Source: Candidatus Freyarchaeum deiterrae
GTDB lineage: Archaea > Asgardarchaeota > Jordiarchaeia > Jordiarchaeales > Jordiarchaeaceae
Length of the DNA stretch: 64,000 bases
Direction of reading: 5' to 3'
Assembly (NCBI GenBank): GCA_037305845.1
Contig: CP147778.1
Coordinates: 2,144,001-2,208,000, forward strand
Part shown: positions 23,362 to 31,825 of the stretch, in pieces
Layout: every line of letters begins with the position of its first letter
How positions within the stretch are numbered: the first letter of the stretch is position 1
Notes under the pieces: model-generated
Databases searched by the model: none
What the model was told of the DNA's origin: nothing
What the model saw: the letters and a program-made list of their open reading frames with translations, nothing else
Translations under genes and position numbers: made by a program

Positions 23362-24960
23362 TTGGGAGAACAATGCATACTAACACATGATGTAGGAACA
23401 TCAGGAGACAAAGCAGCTCTGGTAGGAACATCGGGCAAAATACTCGGAACCGCAGAGAAAGACTACGACGTGGACTATCCACAACCGGGATGGGCTGAGC
23501 AGGACCCCAAACAGTACTGGGACGCAGTAGTAGAAACAACCAGAACACTCTTAAAAAAGTCAAAAATTAACCCCAAAGAAGTGATAGGAATAAGCCTAGA
23601 CGCCCAGATGATGGCAGCAATACCAGTAGACAAAGACTGCAACGCCCTCCGACCAGCAATGATCTGGCTCGACTCCCGAAGCCAAAAACAATCAGCAGAA
23701 TTCGAAAAAAAATTCGACCCCATAAGCCAACTGCTCGACATGGGAAACCTACCCATGACCACCGCAAAGGACGTCATACCCAAAATCTGGTGGATCCGAG
23801 ACAACGAGCCCAAAGTTTTTGAGAAAGCCTACAAATGGTGCGATGTTAAAGACTACGTAATCCGCAAACTCGTAGGAGAATTCTACACGGATTGGAGCAC
23901 CGCTCTCCTCTTCGGCCTTTTCCACATCCAAAACCATGTCTGGGTCGACCAAATAATCGAAGGAGTAGGCTTATCAAGAGATAAGCTCTGCGAAGTCACC
24001 AAAACCACGGATGTTATAGGAACCCTAACAAAAGAAGCAGCCCGCGAATTGGGACTCACCACAGAAACATCTGTAATCTGTGGCGCAGGTGACGCACCAG
24101 CCACTAATGTGGGTTCAGGCGCAATTAAAACCCTTGAAGGACACCTATACCTAGGCTCATCCGGATGGGTCTCCGTAACAATGGATAATTTTGCCGTTGA
24201 CCCCGAAACAGGCATCGCAACCATCTACTCCGGAGTCCCAGGAAAATTCATGCTCATCGGCGAAATGGAAAGCGTCGCCGCACCCTTCAAATGGTTCAGA
24301 GACAAGCTCGCCACAGCAGAGTGCCAAACAGCCACAGAACGAAACGTTGACCCCTACGACATCATAAACGAAGAAGCAGCGGCAGTAGGACCGGGCGCAA
24401 AGAAATTAATCTTTCTACCATGGATGCTCGGAGAAAGGGCACCAATACAGGACACCACAGTCAGAGGCGGCTTCATCAACCTAAGCTTCCACCACGGCCC
24501 ACCCGAGATCGCAAGATCCATACTGGAAGGAGTAGCCTACCACATAAGGTGGATAACAAAAAACATTCAGAAAATCCTCGACCGAGGCGTCCTAGACCCA
24601 AACCAACCCAAACCCGAAATCAAATCCCTAAACGCCTGCGGAGGAGGAGCAATAAGCCCCCTCTGGATGCAAATATTCGCCGACGTACTCGACAAGAGAA
24701 TACGCCTCATCAAAGAACCCCGCTCTGTAGCAGCACTTGGAATCGCAATAATATCAATGATCGGACTAAAAATATACCCGGACTTTGAAACTGCAGTAAA
24801 CAAAATAATAAAAACCGATAAAGACTACTACCCAAACGAAAACCTGAAACCAATATACGACGAAATGTACAATGTCTACGAAGGAATCTACCCAAAACTA
24901 AAAGACGTTTACCAAACCCTTAACAAGGGCGAAACAACCAAAAAAATAATAGAACCCTAA
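23362..24960 (+). CDS. FGGY-family carbohydrate kinase (xylulokinase-like)
   Basis: HDVGTSG, WAEQDP, IWLDSR, GAGD, YLGSSGW, LGERAP and CGGGA motifs. Confidence 0.9.
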   Translation: MGEQCILTHDVGTSGDKAALVGTSGKILGTAEKDYDVDYPQPGWAEQDPKQYWDAVVETTRTLLKKSKINPKEVIGISLDAQMMAAIPVDKDCNALRPAMIWLDSRSQKQSAEFEKKFDPISQLLDMGNLPMTTAKDVIPKIWWIRDNEPKVFEKAYKWCDVKDYVIRKLVGEFYTDWSTALLFGLFHIQNHVWVDQIIEGVGLSRDKLCEVTKTTDVIGTLTKEAARELGLTTETSVICGAGDAPATNVGSGAIKTLEGHLYLGSSGWVSVTMDNFAVDPETGIATIYSGVPGKFMLIGEMESVAAPFKWFRDKLATAECQTATERNVDPYDIINEEAAAVGPGAKKLIFLPWMLGERAPIQDTTVRGGFINLSFHHGPPEIARSILEGVAYHIRWITKNIQKILDRGVLDPNQPKPEIKSLNACGGGAISPLWMQIFADVLDKRIRLIKEPRSVAALGIAIISMIGLKIYPDFETAVNKIIKTDKDYYPNENLKPIYDEMYNVYEGIYPKLKDVYQTLNKGETTKKIIEP

Positions 24961-25069
24961 CCCCATTTCCCCCTTTTTAGATTCCCACTAACAGAGTTAA
25001 AGATGATAGTGTGTTATAAGGGGCTAATAGCAAATGTTTATATCTTGAGGAGCCTCTTGATTTTTTATC

Positions 25070-25945
25070 ATGTATCCTCTACCTTTTGATTATTTTTCGC
25101 CAAAAAGTCTCGGCGAAGCTTTGGAGCTTTACGGGGATGGCTCAGAGATTAAAATACTAGCAGGTGGGCAGAGCCTGATACCTTCTCTGAAATTGAGATT
25201 GGTTTCTTTGAAAGGCGTGGTGGATATAACGGGCATCAAAGAACTTGATTATGTACGTAAAGATGAAGACTTGCTTAGGATAGGGGCGTTAACAACTACT
25301 GCCATCTTGGAAAGTGATGAAATAATCGCATCTTCAATGCCCATTCTAAAGGAGGCTGCGGCTCAAATTGCTGACCCCTTAGTAAGGAATAGGGGCACAG
25401 TGGGCGGCAATTTGTGTTATCCTGATCCAGTGTATGATTTGCCAGCGGTGATGCTCGCCTTAAACGCGTCAATGGTTGCGGCTAGCAAAAAGGGAACCAG
25501 AAGGATTAGCGCTGATTCGTTCTTCATAGACTCATTTAAGACCGCATTGAAGCCTGGAGAGATTCTTACCGAAGTCGAGGTGCCGTTGCAGCTGGGCAGG
25601 TTTGGGGGCGCATATTGCAAAGTGAAGAAGGGCTCGGGAGGCTATTCTATTGCTGGCGTCGCGTCCTGTCTTTCAGTTGCGGATGATGATGGTGCCATTT
25701 CTGGATGCCGGATCGGATTGACTGCTGTTGGTCCTAAGGCTCTAAGAGCTGAGAAAGCAGAACAAGCTCTTCTGAAAAGAGTGCCAACGCCATCTACGTT
25801 GGATAAAGCTGCTGCATTGGCTGTAAAGGCTTCAAAGCCGTCTTCTGACTCCAATGCGTCAGAGGGTTATAGGCGCAAGGTGTTATACAAGCTTGTAAAA
25901 GACTCGGTAGAAGCAGCTTATGGCAGGGCAACCCAAGTGAGGTGA
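25070..25945 (+). CDS. Xanthine-dehydrogenase-family FAD subunit (CoxM/CutB-like)
   Basis: LAGGQSLIP, IGALTT and VRNRGTVGGN motifs. Confidence 0.9.
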   Translation: MYPLPFDYFSPKSLGEALELYGDGSEIKILAGGQSLIPSLKLRLVSLKGVVDITGIKELDYVRKDEDLLRIGALTTTAILESDEIIASSMPILKEAAAQIADPLVRNRGTVGGNLCYPDPVYDLPAVMLALNASMVAASKKGTRRISADSFFIDSFKTALKPGEILTEVEVPLQLGRFGGAYCKVKKGSGGYSIAGVASCLSVADDDGAISGCRIGLTAVGPKALRAEKAEQALLKRVPTPSTLDKAAALAVKASKPSSDSNASEGYRRKVLYKLVKDSVEAAYGRATQVR

Positions 25946-25951
25946 CGGGAA

Positions 25952-26425
25952 ATGAAGATAAATTTTAGGGTAAATGGAGAAGATGTTGAACTTGATGTGG
26001 AGCCGAGGAGGCTTCTTGTGAGTGTACTTAGGGATGAGCTTGGGCTCACTGGAACGCATATGGGTTGTGATACTACGAATTGCGGTGCATGTGCTGTCTT
26101 GGTGGATGGCAAGGTAATCAAGTCGTGTACGATGCTTGCGGTTCAGGCGGATGGCAAGGAGATACTTACCATAGAGGGTTTGGCGAAAGAGGGCGAGTTG
26201 CACCCTGTTCAGCGTGCTTTTTTGGAGAAGCATGGATTGCAGTGCGGTTTCTGCACGCCGGGAATGATAATGACGTCTTACTGGCTTCTGAGCCAAAACA
26301 AGGACCAAGATGAGGAGGAGATAAAGAGGCTGCTCTCGGGAAACCTGTGCAGGTGCACGGGTTACCATGGAATTGTAGAGTCTGTAAAATACGCTAGGAT
26401 GCTTATGGAGAAAGAGGGGAGGTAA
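25952..26425 (+). CDS. Xanthine-dehydrogenase-family 2Fe-2S subunit (CoxS/CutC-like)
   Basis: [18 protein letters not shown] and NLCRCTGY motifs. Confidence 0.93.
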
Positions 26426-26429
26426 TGCT

Positions 26430-28457
26430 ATGGGAGGACCTGAATTATTTGTTAGGGGCGCAGGGCGATATGTGGATGATATTAAGTTGCCACACATGCT
26501 GTATATGATGGTAGCTAGGAGCCCTTACGCGAGGGCAAGGGTACTTTCTGTGAAGGGCGGTATTAATAGGGATGATCTGAAGGCGCTTGTAGGTGGGTTT
26601 GGAGAGGGCGGGCGCTCAGATGTTGATCCTGTTTTGCTGCATCCTGTTTTTGCTCAGGATACTGTGAATTATGTCGGTCAGCCGGTTGCTGCGGTGTTTG
26701 CGGATGACCGTTACGTTGCTAGAGACAAGCTGGATGAAGTAGAAGTTGAATATGAGCAGTTGAAGCCTATTATGACTATAGACGACTCTCTTTCCAGCGA
26801 GCCTATTCATGCTGGTACTAAATCAAACATCATACGACAGTCATGGATGGGTGCCGATTTTGAGGATCCCAAGTCTCCTGTTGTACTGGAAGACGAGTTT
26901 ACGATAGGAAGGGTTGTGAATAACCCTCTCGAACCGAGAGGAATAATCGCGGATTATGATGGCTCCAGATTGACCGTTTACATCTCTACACAGGCGGTAT
27001 TCAGCATAAAGGCTGGGTTGTGCAGTGTCCTGAAGCTGGATAGTTCCAAGGTTAGGGTTTTGCAGGCAGACACAGGAGGCGCGTTCGGGTCGAAAAGTGC
27101 GCTATATCCTGAATACGTCATGGCAGCTTACGCGGCAATGAAATACAAGCAACCAGTGAAGTGGATTGAGAGCCGTAGCGAACACCTAGCCGCTAGTCAA
27201 CCAGGCAGAGGCATGCGTGGCAAGATGAAGATATTTGCCGACAAAGATGGAAAGGTTGACGCGTTGCGTGGCGAGGTAACCACAGACGCTGGTGCTTTTG
27301 GCGGGACTTCTGGAACCTCTTCGGCGTTTTTCGTGGCACTGCAGTTGACAGGACCTTATGGAATAGGAAAGGCGTATGTGCAAGCAACTTCCGTTATGAC
27401 GAACAAGCCTCCTCAAGGTCCCTACCGGGGCGCGGGGAGACCGGAGGCTGCTTTCTTCATGGAAAGAATGATGGACCTGCTTGCCGACGAGCTTGGAAAA
27501 GAAGCAGATGAAGTACGCCTCATTAACACCACCACAGAGAGCTTCAAGTCGCCACTTGGCCTACAGATTGAAGCGTCGCGTCCGTTCTATGAGAATGCTG
27601 TTGCCGAGCTAAAGTACAGGGAAAAATCAAAAAGCAGCAAGGCAGGGCTGGGCTTTTTCGTTCTGTTTCCCGCAGCCTTCATGGGGGAGACTGCTAGAAT
27701 AAAAATTAAGGACGGCAAGGTAGACGTTTGGCTCGGAGGAAACCAACACGGCCAGGCACACACTGCCTTTGTAAAGAGATTACTCAATGAAGAACTCGGA
27801 ATCCCCAACGACTTGGTAACGCTAAACAACGGAGACACTGACATGCTTGAGAAAGGCGTCGGAACCTGGGGAAGCAGATCCGCAATCGTGGGCGGGGCAG
27901 CCGTTGTCACCGCAGCCAGAAAATTGAAGGAGCAAGTAGAAAGCGAGCACGGAAGCTACACGACAGAAGCCCTGCTAGAAGGAGATTATAATGCAGAAGT
28001 TTTCTACGACTACAGAGCACAGTTAAACTCCTTCGGCGCAGCCCTCGCAACAGTAAGCATCAATAAGTATGGCATGGTCAACGTAAAAGAGTCTGCAGCT
28101 TGTTACGATGTGGGTAGGGCACTCACCCCCGGCGTAGTAGAAAGCCAGATAATCGGGGGAACTATTCAGGGAATCGGCCAAGTATTGTATGAGAGCGTTG
28201 TGCACGATTCGGAAGGCAGACTGCTGACAAAAAGCCTCTTCGACGCAGGCTTACCCGTAGCCGAAAACATGCCAGAATTCCAAGTCAAGATAATCGAAAA
28301 CCCCTCTTCACTACCTCATGGCGCTAAAGGCCTAGGCGAGGCCCCAACAATAGGCACACCGGTCGCCCTTGTGAGAGCCATCGAAAGAATATCCGGCAAA
28401 AGAATAACGCATACGCCAGTCAAACCTGAAGAATTAATTGAAGATTCAGACACATAA
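26430..28457 (+). CDS. Xanthine-dehydrogenase-family molybdopterin subunit (aldehyde oxidoreductase-like)
   Basis: GGAFGSK, PYRGAGRPEA, GTWGSRS and AKGLGE motifs; lacks the form I CODH AYxCSFR motif. Confidence 0.9.
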   Translation: MGGPELFVRGAGRYVDDIKLPHMLYMMVARSPYARARVLSVKGGINRDDLKALVGGFGEGGRSDVDPVLLHPVFAQDTVNYVGQPVAAVFADDRYVARDKLDEVEVEYEQLKPIMTIDDSLSSEPIHAGTKSNIIRQSWMGADFEDPKSPVVLEDEFTIGRVVNNPLEPRGIIADYDGSRLTVYISTQAVFSIKAGLCSVLKLDSSKVRVLQADTGGAFGSKSALYPEYVMAAYAAMKYKQPVKWIESRSEHLAASQPGRGMRGKMKIFADKDGKVDALRGEVTTDAGAFGGTSGTSSAFFVALQLTGPYGIGKAYVQATSVMTNKPPQGPYRGAGRPEAAFFMERMMDLLADELGKEADEVRLINTTTESFKSPLGLQIEASRPFYENAVAELKYREKSKSSKAGLGFFVLFPAAFMGETARIKIKDGKVDVWLGGNQHGQAHTAFVKRLLNEELGIPNDLVTLNNGDTDMLEKGVGTWGSRSAIVGGAAVVTAARKLKEQVESEHGSYTTEALLEGDYNAEVFYDYRAQLNSFGAALATVSINKYGMVNVKESAACYDVGRALTPGVVESQIIGGTIQGIGQVLYESVVHDSEGRLLTKSLFDAGLPVAENMPEFQVKIIENPSSLPHGAKGLGEAPTIGTPVALVRAIERISGKRITHTPVKPEELIEDSDT

Positions 28458-28609
28458 CTTACACTTTTTTAACAGCAAAGAGATCTAGGCACGCCAAGGC
28501 TGCAAGGCTAAACTAATTATTATTCAACTTTTGATTAGTTGTTTCAAATTATCGCTAGGACGGGGATGCTCAATTCACCTTTCTCCACGTTCAATGAAAA
28601 GCATCCTAG

Positions 28610-29413
28610 GTGAGTGGCATGATTACAGACTTGAAAATTTTGAATGAAGCGGCGCATCTATTGGAAAATGGAACTAGACTTGCGTTGTGCACGGTTATCG
28701 AGAAAAGGGGTTCAGGGCCTAGAGATGTTGGTGCGAAAATGATTGTTGGGGAAGACGAAAAGACTTATGGGACTATTGGGGGAGGTGCCCTTGAGAGAGC
28801 TTTGGTCAACGAGTGCATGAAAGCTTTGGAAGAAGGCAAATCAAGAAGAGTTACTTTCAACATGACGAGGGAAAAGAAAGAGGGAATGGTTGAAACGGGT
28901 CTGATATGCGGAGGCGAATTAACTGTGTTTGTTGACGTATTAGAACCAGATTTAAGGTTAATAATAGTGGGTTCTGGTCATGTAGCGTTGCCCTTAGCGA
29001 GACTAGCCGAAATTGTAGGATTTAAAACACTCATAGTTGATGATGACATCGACCTAGCCAACAAAGAGCGATTTCCAATGGCTGAAAGAATCATTACTGG
29101 CGATTTTGCCAAAATATTGAATGAGCTTGATGTAGGCTCCAACGACTCTGTCGTCATTGCTCACGGCGAACCTGAACATGATTACAAGGCATTAGAGAAG
29201 ATGATTGAAAAAAAACCCGCCTACATTGGACTGCTTGGAAGCCGGACGAAAGTTGCGATACTCGTTCAGAGGCTTCGAAAGCAAGGAATCAGCGAGGCAC
29301 AATTGAAGATATTACACGCACCCTTAGGCTTGGACATTGGGGCTCAGACCCCTGAAGAAATCGGAATAAGCGTACTCGCCGAGATTATCCAGAGCAAAAG
29401 AAAAAGAACATGA
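28610..29413 (+). CDS. xdhC: XdhC/CoxI Moco-insertion chaperone
   Basis: GSGPR..GAKM, GTIGGG..E, CGG, YIGLLGS and GAQTPEEI motifs. Confidence 0.9.
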   Translation: MSGMITDLKILNEAAHLLENGTRLALCTVIEKRGSGPRDVGAKMIVGEDEKTYGTIGGGALERALVNECMKALEEGKSRRVTFNMTREKKEGMVETGLICGGELTVFVDVLEPDLRLIIVGSGHVALPLARLAEIVGFKTLIVDDDIDLANKERFPMAERIITGDFAKILNELDVGSNDSVVIAHGEPEHDYKALEKMIEKKPAYIGLLGSRTKVAILVQRLRKQGISEAQLKILHAPLGLDIGAQTPEEIGISVLAEIIQSKRKRT

Positions 29414-29450
29414 ACATAGCACGAATCACTTACTTGAGTATTTACGGTTC

Positions 29451-30068
29451 TCAAATGCCATAGCTACCAGTTTTTATTAGACTGCGAGCGCGAGCCAAGT
29501 CTTCAGGAGTGTCTATGTCCATAATGGACCACTCCGGTGCCTCGATTGTGAACAGTTTGTCAGCATGCCTATTAACAACGTCTCGTATTGTCTCGGGGTT
29601 TTTCAAAGCTAGTATTTCGCCGAAAAGCTCCTTATGAAAGAGCAGCGGATGACCTTTCTTCCCCTTATGTATTGGACTCACAATCCATGCTTTGTCTACA
29701 TTGTTCTCCATCTGTTCAATCATAACGTTCAAAAAGTTCTTGTCAAGAATAGGTTCGTCTCCAAGAACCAAAAATGCAGCGTCAACATGACGCATTAGTC
29801 GCAGTCCCTTTTGAAAAGATGAAATCATCCCCTGTTCATAGTCATCATTTATAACCGTCTTAATATCTTCTAACCATGGCTTTATGGCTTCGATTATCTG
29901 CTGAGGTTCGTGTCCTAACACAATTACTTTTTCATCTGCGTCCGTAGCTGCTATTGCATCCAAAACATTCCCTATCAAAGTATCATCATTCAGACGCAGC
30001 AGGAGCTTGTTTTGCCCCATCCTTTCGGATTTACCGGCTGCTAGAACAATTGCTGCGGTAATTATCAT
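29451..30068 (-). CDS. mocA: Molybdenum cofactor cytidylyltransferase-like nucleotidyltransferase
   Basis: LAAGKSERMGQNKLL, LGDEP, GHPLLF and DIDTPED motifs; adjacent to the XDH cassette. Confidence 0.85.
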   Translation of the reverse strand: MIITAAIVLAAGKSERMGQNKLLLRLNDDTLIGNVLDAIAATDADEKVIVLGHEPQQIIEAIKPWLEDIKTVINDDYEQGMISSFQKGLRLMRHVDAAFLVLGDEPILDKNFLNVMIEQMENNVDKAWIVSPIHKGKKGHPLLFHKELFGEILALKNPETIRDVVNRHADKLFTIEAPEWSIMDIDTPEDLARARSLIKTGSYGI

Positions 30069-30253
30069 CAACACCTCCCATGCCGAAAATAGCGCCATCC
30101 TCTCTGGGGTTGCACCAAACGTCGTGACTATTGCTTCCTAGTTGATTGCACCAAAATATAACCATATTCAAGTATATAACTATGCTCAACGAAAATCGCG
30201 GCAAAAAAATAAAAACAAAAAAGAGAAGGGGAAAGCCCCGAAACTAAATTCCT

Positions 30254-31647
30254 TCACACTATTTTACTCGTCTTCCAAGTGCCCAAGGCACGACCGAGCT
30301 CCTTGTGATCCTCAGCATACTTCTCCAACGGTATACCCTGCACAGAAGCGTCGATAGCCTGACGAAAAGAAGTAGCACCAGCACGAGGACCATCAGGATG
30401 CGCATGAATAGCGCCACCAACACCTACTATGAAATCCTTACCGAGATCCGCCATAATCTGAGGAACAATCTGAACAATGACACCACCAGCAGGCATAGGC
30501 AAAGTAGGCTTCAAATGATAGAACGGAAACGTCAACTCACGCCAAACCTGCAGATAAGTCTCCTTCATGAAAGGAGCTTTTCTGGAGGCTCGGGAACTAC
30601 TTGCACTCAATGTGCGAAATCAGTCTCCCGAATTCCTATTCCAAAGGGCGCTGGGTTAAAATTTTAACAGGGAAGTCCTGTTAAATATACTTCCATGTCA
30701 GCGCCGGCTAGTCTGCAGAATTTTCCTAGTATGAGTCTGGCGTCTACTCCGTATTCTGGTGATGCGTAGTGTACTGCTGCATAGTCTGTGTGTGCTAAAA
30801 CTGGTACTTTTATGCTGGGGTCTTCTGCTAGGTCTCTGAATGTTTCGTATCCTGTTGTGATGATGTTGACCATTAGTGCGTTTGCTCCTAGGTCTATGGC
30901 TTTTTCTGCTAGTTCTAGTGTTTTTTTGGGTCGGTCGGTTATGTTGACTGTGTAGAGTGTTTTTTCTCCTTTTTCTTCGTCTGCTTTGTCGATTGCTTCC
31001 ATGAATTTTACTACCCGGTCTTCTACTCGGTTTAGTTCCATGTCTGCTAGTAGTTCATCGTCTTTGATGAAGTCTACTCCGCCTGCTGCGACTTCGTATG
31101 CTAGGTCTGCTCCTATTTCGCAGGGTGAGTAGACGCAGGGTTTTATCATGTTGTTTAGTATGGGTCGGTCTTTTACTCCCAGTATCTCTCTTACTCCTTT
31201 TATTCCGAATTTTGGTCCTTTGAATCCGCTTACCCATTTTTTGGGGAATTGGAGGTCCAGTAGTTTTATTTTTCCGGCAGCGGAGAGGTTTCCGACTACT
31301 GTGCTCAGGAGTACGGGTAGGTTGGGGTAGCCGAGGTTGGTTATGGGGTACGCGATTTTTATTATCCAGTGTCTTTCTTCTGTTTTTGGTAGCTGCCATT
31401 GGTGTGGTGGGATTTCGAATACTGCTGTTACTCGGGCTGCGTGCAGTCTTCTGACTTCGGGTGTTTCTTTGGGTACGGGTGTCCAGGTTCCGGTGCTTTG
31501 TTCTAGGGCTGCTGCTACGCCCATTGTGTATCCGTCTAGCCATGAGGGCTGGGTTGTGTAGTATGTGGCTATTATGTTTTCTTCGGGGTCTATGCCTTCG
31601 GGTAGTGCTTCCATTGATGTTAATAATTCATAATCTTTTTCGCCCAA
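30254..31647 (-). CDS. RuBisCO-like protein (form IV), spliced from 3 exons: 31647-30687, 30656-30639, 30579-30254
   Basis: EQSTGTW, GPKFGI.G.R, MIKP, GGVDFIKDDELL and HAHPDG..AGA motifs. Removing the 30- and 59-nt inserts gives a continuous 434-aa ORF reading GADMEVYPAPFGKAPF. TTG start follows GGAGG. Confidence 0.88.
30580..30638 (-). other. Putative BHB mRNA intron (59 nt), RLP intron 2
   Basis: Central helix UUGG/CCAG, bulges AAU and AAA, long internal stem. Canonical cuts give GGA A|AA GCU (G-K-A). Confidence 0.85.
30657..30686 (-). other. Putative BHB mRNA intron (30 nt), RLP intron 1
   Basis: Central helix AAGU/AUUU, bulges AUA and UAA, perfect 9-bp inner stem, exon-exon stem GG/CC plus GGCGCUG/CAGCGCC. 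Cuts give GUA U|AC CCA (V-Y-P). Confidence 0.87.
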
Positions 31648-31825
31648 CTTTTTTCCTCCATTTTTAATCAAGTTTATTCGTGGTTGTAGAACTTTTAAAG
31701 TTTTGTTAAGCTCATTTTGTTGTGTGGTTTTGGTTTTCGAGGATTTTAGATAGTTTTTTAAAGGAATTTCGCGTTCTATCTATGAACAGATTCTTGCCGC
31801 TTGTGGTGGGTTAAGAACAGGAGGT

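What the first reader, a model, noticed from the sequence alone, without database searches (positions are those of the whole stretch)
30657..30686. RLP intron 1 (30 nt): in-frame but stop-containing, near-textbook BHB
Seen: GG-AAGU-AU^A-UUUAACAGG-acuuc-CCUGUUAAA-AUUU-UA^A-CC, with a further GGCGCUG/CAGCGCC exon stem. The insert carries the UAA that ends the 335-aa ORF. Canonical cleavage gives E-V-Y-P.
Basis: partly seen in the sequence, partly recalled or inferred. Interest (0 to 1): 0.85.

Follow-up and report, generated by a model that had tools for sequence, protein, structure and literature searches.

The report
Twin tRNA-type introns in Asgard gene
A RuBisCO-like enzyme gene of an Asgard archaeon is broken by two tiny hairpin inserts (30 and 59 bases, only 18 bases apart) that have the exact shape cut by the tRNA-splicing enzyme, so the cell most likely has to splice this messenger RNA twice, something so far shown for only one archaeal protein-coding sequence (cbf5); the splicing itself has not been observed here.

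Summary
Confirmed. The 30-nt insert (30686-30657, minus strand) is a canonical bulge-helix-bulge (BHB) with an in-frame UAA. Canonical cuts give E-V-Y-P. A second canonical BHB insert (59 nt, 30638-30580) follows an 18-nt micro-exon. Removing both gives a 442-aa form IV RuBisCO-like protein that aligns without gaps to intron-free congeners (88% identity). The genome matches Ca. Freyarchaeum deiterrae by size and encodes two EndA subunits and RtcB. Nine further Freyarchaeia contigs (eight distinct inserts) carry an insert at the same site, with compensatory changes (covariation 0.43; 0 of 500 shuffles reach it). Sequence downstream of the stop is under purifying selection (dN/dS 0.09-0.18). Relatives show all four states: neither intron, intron 1, intron 2, both. 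Pseudogene, split-gene, terminator, readthrough and bypass readings fit poorly. This scan has already noted such inserts in this genome and other archaea. In the papers searched, cbf5 remains the only spliced archaeal coding sequence.

The parts
30687..31671 (-). Exon 1 of the RuBisCO-like protein (RLP) gene; start TTG at 31671, or TTG at 31647 as in database protein P0033; ends on the first base of the Tyr codon of E-V-Y
30657..30686 (-). Intron 1 (the finding): 30 nt, strict BHB, 9-bp inner stem with 5-nt loop, phase 1
30664..30666 (-). In-frame UAA in the 3' arm of intron 1; ends the unspliced 335-aa ORF
30687..30694 (-). 5' half of the intron-1 BHB in exon 1: exon helix GG, central helix AAGU, first two bulge bases AU
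30639..30656 (-). 18-nt micro-exon (rest of Tyr codon, P-A-P-F-G, first base of the loop-6 Lys codon); every base takes part in one of the two folded motifs, without overlap
30580..30638 (-). Intron 2: 59 nt, frame-shifting, strict BHB (CU-UUGG-AA^U ... CCAG-AA^A-AG); splits the Lys codon of G-K
30254..30579 (-). Exon 3: C-terminal 108 codons of the RLP plus stop
30647..30705 (-). Auxiliary exon-exon stem GGCGCUG (30705-30699) with CAGCGCC (30653-30647) closing the intron-1 domain; not conserved in relatives

Best explanation
The insert is a BHB intron in a protein-coding mRNA. SHOWN from sequence: the pre-mRNA can fold into two adjacent BHB motifs around an 18-nt micro-exon, and cutting after the second base of each bulge and joining gives the conserved 442-aa form IV RuBisCO-like protein with an intact loop-6 region. 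INFERRED from the known archaeal pathway: the two-subunit splicing endonuclease EndA cuts both bulges of each motif, RtcB joins the exons, and the 30- and 59-nt pieces are released, perhaps as circles. Unspliced message gives a dead-end 335-aa fragment through the in-frame UAA. INFERRED, weaker: the introns are near-neutral passengers kept splice-competent by selection on the host gene, and come and go by short recombination tracts between alleles rather than by copying of spliced RNA.
For: Intron-free congeners align ungapped across both sites at 88% identity. Nine further contigs (eight distinct inserts) have an insert at the same phase-1 position. In the seven 29-30-nt copies the inner stem is 95% paired, 5 of its 9 pairs change on both sides, covariation is 0.432 against 0.200 in shuffles (0/500) and at most 0.152 in slid registers (kin are not independent). 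dN/dS downstream of the stop is 0.09-0.18 among intron-bearing copies. The eight codons between the intron and any downstream Met vary at 7 third positions, 1 second and 0 first positions, so they are translated. The Val codon that supplies the first bulge base is GTA in 10 of 10 intron-bearing contigs and 0 of 14 without intron 1. Intron 2 is also a strict BHB; its site holds other BHB-like inserts in five more Freyarchaeia lineages and in another family. A homology census found 15 well-aligned frame-breaking inserts in three Jordarchaeales genomes; 13 are BHB by my rule against 1 for the mirror-image geometry. EndA alpha (Tyr/His/Lys motif present) and beta-like subunits and RtcB are encoded. 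An intact database protein (P0038) is identical to the spliced product of locus L174.
Against: No RNA or protein evidence. The BHB is 2.4 kcal/mol above the minimum-energy fold. The central helix is 4/4 in only 2 of 9 distinct copies, 3/4 in four and 2/4 in one. Two copies (L173, L319) have a 33-nt version in which a canonical cut two bases after the helix would create a UAA stop, so they need a non-canonical 3' cut. An ab initio BHB scan did not beat its mirror control genome-wide: the motif alone is weak evidence and homology carries the case. How a BHB survives coupled transcription and translation is not explained.
Confidence: 0.86

Rival explanations
1. Translational recoding: the ribosome reads through the stop or hops over the hairpin (as in T4 gene 60 or yeast mitochondrial byps), and the RNA is never cut.
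For: The inserts have the size and hairpin of hop elements (PMC8211752). The 33-nt variants break the canonical cut rule, and one copy (L333) has no stop and the weakest central helix, so it could be read through.
Against: Take-off and landing triplets do not match in any of 9 copies (TAT against AAC, CAC or ATC), and no stop follows the take-off codon. The stop lies at three different places, lengths are 29, 30 and 33 nt, and intron 2 shifts the frame by +1 or +2 in different copies. Pairing between exon and insert covaries in the central helix, which hopping does not need.
Confidence: 0.06
2. Split gene: the 335-aa N-terminal part and a C-terminal part starting at the Met of F-M-K-E are made separately, and the hairpin is a spacer or terminator.
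For: Gene callers annotate it this way. The 9-bp hairpin is followed by four U.
Against: The codons between insert and Met would be untranslated, yet they vary only synonymously. The U tract is replaced by GCCG, GCCA, GCCC or CCCG in relatives. The terminator scan does not call it. Near-identical alleles have the uninterrupted gene.
Confidence: 0.03
3. Pseudogene broken by small palindromic insertions (mobile-element scars); the BHB shape is incidental.
For: The gene is probably dispensable, and a second RbcL-family gene exists in the genome.
Against: Purifying selection on both sides of the stop across 83-94% protein identity; compensatory changes inside the insert; no other copy of either insert in the genome and no target duplication beyond 1-2 ambiguous bases.
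Confidence: 0.03
4. The insert is removed at DNA level in part of the population, or the RNA is spliced by a nuclease other than EndA.
For: Intron-free alleles exist in DNA of very close relatives; a 117-aa protein on a 556-nt contig carries the doubly joined junction and is 112/117 identical to this gene's product.
Against: The intron-free allele differs from its intron-bearing twin at 10 synonymous sites within 25 nt of the junction, so it is not a clean excision product. The conserved pairing allows G-U, which is RNA-type. The geometry is exactly that of EndA substrates.
Confidence: 0.02

Closest known systems
cbf5 pre-mRNA intron of Desulfurococcales and Sulfolobales (Watanabe 2002; Yoshinari 2006; Yokobori 2009, PMC2738675)
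   Same: Short ORF-less insert inside a codon of a coding sequence; BHB or relaxed BHB cut between bulge bases 2 and 3; hetero-oligomeric EndA; lineage-specific loss.
   Different: Different gene (metabolic enzyme), different phylum (Asgard); two introns in tandem around an 18-nt micro-exon; presence and absence vary even between near-identical alleles; several other genes of the genome are affected; splicing not shown here.
BHB intron in the 5' UTR of Haloferax volcanii HVO_1309 (Schwarz 2020, PMC7714728)
   Same: EndA-processed intron in an mRNA, 46 nt.
   Different: Lies in the untranslated region, so no reading frame depends on it. The paper names cbf5 as the only other case.
Multiple tRNA introns of Freyarchaeia and Atabeyarchaeia (PMC11291895; bioRxiv 10.64898/2026.10.13.758758)
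   Same: Same lineage (probably the same genome), same motif, repeated gains, two-subunit EndA.
   Different: Those papers treat tRNA genes; term searches in them found no mention of introns in coding sequences.
Ribosomal bypass elements (T4 gene 60; Magnusiomyces byps; PMC8211752)
   Same: Short hairpin insert in a coding sequence that is absent from the protein.
   Different: They need matched take-off and landing triplets and an adjacent stop; neither is present.
Form IV RuBisCO-like proteins (DK-MTP-1-P enolase MtnW; PDB 2oek)
   Same: Best solved-structure match of the intact orthologue, E 2.6e-81; KDDE motif kept.
   Different: Scores below the NCBIfam cut-offs for MtnW, form III RuBisCO and OiaX; the reaction is not assigned.

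Membership tests
Archaeal BHB (EndA-spliced) introns | 4-bp central helix between two 3-nt bulges on opposite strands, flanked by helices | tested here: met
   4/4, 3+3 nt bulges, 2-bp exon helix, 9-bp inner stem; intron 2 likewise
Archaeal BHB (EndA-spliced) introns | Cut after the second base of each bulge restores the functional sequence | tested here: met
   Register 0 gives EVYP and GKAP, as in intron-free orthologues
Archaeal BHB (EndA-spliced) introns | Structure rather than sequence is conserved | tested here: met
   6 of 15 pairs change on both sides, 87.6% of cells paired; the central helix is relaxed in most relatives
Archaeal BHB (EndA-spliced) introns | Canonical geometry holds in all orthologous copies | tested here: inconclusive
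   The 33-nt variants L173 and L319 need a 3' cut three bases further on; L333 has 2/4 pairs
Archaeal BHB (EndA-spliced) introns | Host encodes EndA and an RNA ligase | tested here: met
   Two EndA paralogues over cut-off, RtcB over cut-off
Archaeal BHB (EndA-spliced) introns | Removal from RNA in vivo; cleavage by EndA in vitro | not testable with these tools
cbf5 intron family | Located in cbf5 at the catalytic Asp codon | tested here: not met
   Host gene is a RuBisCO-like protein; works alike, not a member
Translational bypass elements | Matched take-off and landing triplets; stop right after take-off | tested here: not met
   0 of 9 copies
Group I/II introns and curated RNA families | Match to an Rfam model | tested here: not met
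   No Rfam hit in the window; 30 nt is far too short
Intrinsic terminator | GC-rich stem followed by a conserved U run | tested here: not met
   Not called; U run not conserved

The most novel reading that the evidence does not exclude
Freyarchaeia (and other Asgard archaea) splice a percent-level share of their protein-coding mRNAs with the tRNA endonuclease and RtcB, including multi-intron messages with micro-exons such as this one, and the introns move between alleles by short recombination tracts: a protein-catalysed pre-mRNA splicing system in close prokaryotic relatives of eukaryotes.
Probability: 0.6. Interest if true: 0.88.

Novelty: new variant of a known kind. Interest (0 to 1): 0.72.

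Why it matters
In the papers searched, splicing inside an archaeal coding sequence rests on one gene, cbf5. This locus gives a second gene family with unusually complete comparative support and a new layout: two obligatory introns 18 nt apart, one splitting the loop-6 Lys codon. It is directly testable with two short RNAs and one enzyme. If it holds, annotations of Asgard genomes mis-call such genes as split or truncated (as databases do here), metabolic reconstructions miss intact enzymes, and spliceosome-free mRNA splicing (as for HAC1/XBP1 in eukaryotes, from my own knowledge) has a prokaryotic parallel in Asgard archaea. Allele pairs with and without the intron offer a handle on the open question of how BHB introns arrive and leave.

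Tried and rejected
Ab initio genome-wide BHB scan with coding filters: no better than the mirror control overall (67 vs 63 at a loose setting, 22 vs 14 at a stricter one), so no genome-wide count is given from it; two runs timed out. The spliced junction as DNA was not found in the first 318 loci. P0007, which carries the doubly joined junction, lies on a 556-nt contig of assembly GCA_036704725.1 whose DNA could not be fetched; it is probably an intron-free DNA allele and is not counted as splicing evidence. Rfam and ARAGORN found nothing in the window. The outer exon stem was rejected as a required element. Loss through reverse-transcribed spliced mRNA was rejected for the L174/L334 pair, because the flanks differ. 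Literature searches found no paper on coding-sequence introns in Asgard archaea; the library lacks most subscription journals.

Full report
Observation. On the minus strand the 335-aa ORF 31671-30664 and the 118-aa ORF 30610-30254 are two parts of one RuBisCO large-chain domain: PF00016 positions 1-171 and 215-299. Between them lie two inserts. Insert 1 (30686-30657, 30 nt) reads GG-AAGU-AU^A, a 9-bp stem with a 5-nt loop, AUUU-UA^A-CC: a strict BHB holding the UAA at 30666-30664. It folds far better than shuffles (z -4.8). A shuffled insert gives a strict BHB at this junction in 0.24% of trials. Of the three registers that restore E-V-Y-P, only the canonical one is a strict BHB. Four independent assemblies carry the identical region. 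The BHB fold is 2.4 kcal/mol above the predicted minimum.

The second intron and the micro-exon. Removing insert 1 alone still ends in a stop. A 59-nt insert (30638-30580) is also a strict BHB and its canonical cut gives G-K-A-P. The 18 nt between them are used completely and without overlap by the two folded domains, so both can form at once. The doubly spliced frame is 442 codons and aligns with no gaps to congeners G003-G005 at 88%. Alignment to the genome's other RbcL-family gene puts the G-K on the HSGTAAGK motif, which from established knowledge is loop 6 (Lys334 in spinach numbering). The intact orthologue is closest to form IV enolases among solved structures but under all NCBIfam cut-offs; the reaction is unassigned.

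Organism and machinery. The genome is one contig of 3,576,204 nt; same-genus records are Jordarchaeia/Freyarchaeia, and the size matches Ca. Freyarchaeum deiterrae, 3.58 Mbp, whose tRNA genes are 92-95% intron-bearing (PMC11291895). The identity is inferred from size and kin. It encodes two EndA paralogues, one with the Tyr/His/Lys motif and one beta-like, and RtcB.

Orthologues. An insert at the identical phase-1 site occurs in L329, L325, L333, L173, L319, L242 (Ca. Jordarchaeum madagascariense), L174, L175 and L176. Sequences differ while pairing is kept: in seven aligned copies 87.6% of cells pair, 6 of 15 pairs change on both sides and covariation is 0.432, reached by 0 of 500 shuffles and by no slid register (an earlier six-sequence set gave the same picture). 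These sequences are related, so the shuffles are not a probability. Seven of the nine distinct inserts carry an in-frame stop, at three different places; L325 is frame-shifting with a stop just as early, and L333 is open. The intron-2 site holds 28-65-nt inserts with 3/4 or 4/4 central helices in L329, L325, L333, L322, L326 and, in another family, L020. Two Atabeyarchaeia-sized genomes have a 28-nt BHB insert at a third site of the same gene. Most Asgard orthologues are uninterrupted.

The interrupted gene is alive. dN/dS downstream of the stop is 0.09-0.18 among intron-bearing copies. The eight codons between intron 1 and any possible restart Met vary almost only at third positions (7 of 8 variable columns), so ribosomes translate them in frame with exon 1. 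That excludes a pseudogene and a simple split gene. Bypass is disfavoured because take-off and landing triplets never match (criteria from PMC8211752). A terminator is disfavoured because the U run is not conserved.

Gain and loss. All four states exist, and intron-free proteins nest inside intron-bearing clades; P0038 is identical to spliced L174. The DNA of that pair differs at 15 of 1305 sites, 10 of them within 25 nt of the junction (binomial 2e-11). The intron-free patch is the one unlike its relatives, which suggests loss by a short recombination tract from a divergent allele, not by cDNA. This is one pair and the direction is inferred. All 10 intron-bearing contigs use GTA for the Val codon that supplies the first bulge base; none of 14 others does.

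Not a lone case. Protein-guided comparison found frame-breaking inserts in 5 of 588 genes shared with G006 (rtcB, nadE, ahcY three times, one unnamed gene, this gene) and 2 of 797 shared with G003; G003 and G006 have their own. Of 15 well-aligned frame-breaking inserts 13 are BHB by my rule and 1 fits the mirror geometry. About 1% of conserved genes is a lower bound, since shared introns such as kae1 are invisible to this test. An ab initio scan was not discriminating. Earlier notes of this scan report the same kind of insert in this genome and in DPANN, Bathyarchaeia and Atabeyarchaeia; they are unchecked AI notes and were used only as leads.

What does not fit. The central helix is relaxed in most relatives, which two-subunit EndA enzymes are reported to accept (PMC12397907; PMC2738675). 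The 33-nt variant of L173 and L319 is harder: a canonical 3' cut would make UAA, so it needs a cut three bases later. It is kept in two distant branches and L173 is under purifying selection, so something removes it correctly; this is unexplained. No RNA data could be examined.

Verdict. A real, conserved, structurally selected BHB insert, most likely an EndA/RtcB-spliced mRNA intron (0.86). It works like the cbf5 intron but is not of that family. In print, cbf5 and one Haloferax 5' UTR are the only mRNA cases found (PMC7714728). The tandem layout, micro-exon, Asgard host and allele-level turnover make it a new variant of a known kind. Interest 0.72, held back by the lack of RNA proof.

Noticed in passing
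window 47720-47690 (-): 31-nt frame-shifting insert with a relaxed BHB (3/4) in the P-loop of a ychF-like GTPase; removal gives GKPNSGKTT as in intron-free G003.
   Followed up: partly
window 59742-59715 (-): 28-nt strict BHB insert with weak inner stem in kae1 (GPGL|GPCLR); G003 and G006 are also split at this site, G006 by an insert of only about 13 nt.
   Followed up: partly
G000 C1:1452828, 1500558, 1619887, 1876393, 1876927, 1877066, 987065, 2434719: Frame-breaking inserts of 20-191 nt found by homology (rtcB, nadE, ahcY three times, an HD-type gene, two unnamed); all but rtcB pass my BHB rule.
   Followed up: partly
L076:8858 (G003) and G006 C1 near 836937: rpl44e-like gene (GSQPK|P) has a BHB insert at the same site in G003 and G006 but none in G000; G006 also has a 29-nt one in an EF-2-like DTPGHV|DF motif.
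   Followed up: no
L173:2462-2494; L319:1662-1694: 33-nt variant of intron 1 with three extra bases before the 3' cut; the canonical cut would give a stop. Unexplained.
   Followed up: partly
L333:1097-1126: The only intron-1 copy with neither stop nor frameshift has the weakest central helix (2/4); possibly relaxed need for splicing. Single case.
   Followed up: no
L021 and L022 (minus strand, reference residue 384); L022 near residue 290: Atabeyarchaeia-sized genomes have a 28-nt BHB insert at GGG|IH of the same gene; L022 has a further frameshift that I did not resolve.
   Followed up: partly
G000 C1:1125569, 1589381, 2244134, 2285374, 2494680, 2636190: Further short (28-34 nt) strict-BHB candidates from the ab initio list, one in an Alba-like gene; no homology check.
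   Followed up: no
window 23362-30098: Neighbourhood: FGGY-type sugar kinase, CoxM/S/L-like molybdo-hydroxylase cluster, XdhC and a MobA-like transferase; may bear on the RLP's substrate.
   Followed up: no
whole genome: ARAGORN finds only 17 tRNA genes, several with implausible long introns, consistent with heavily interrupted tRNA genes.
   Followed up: no
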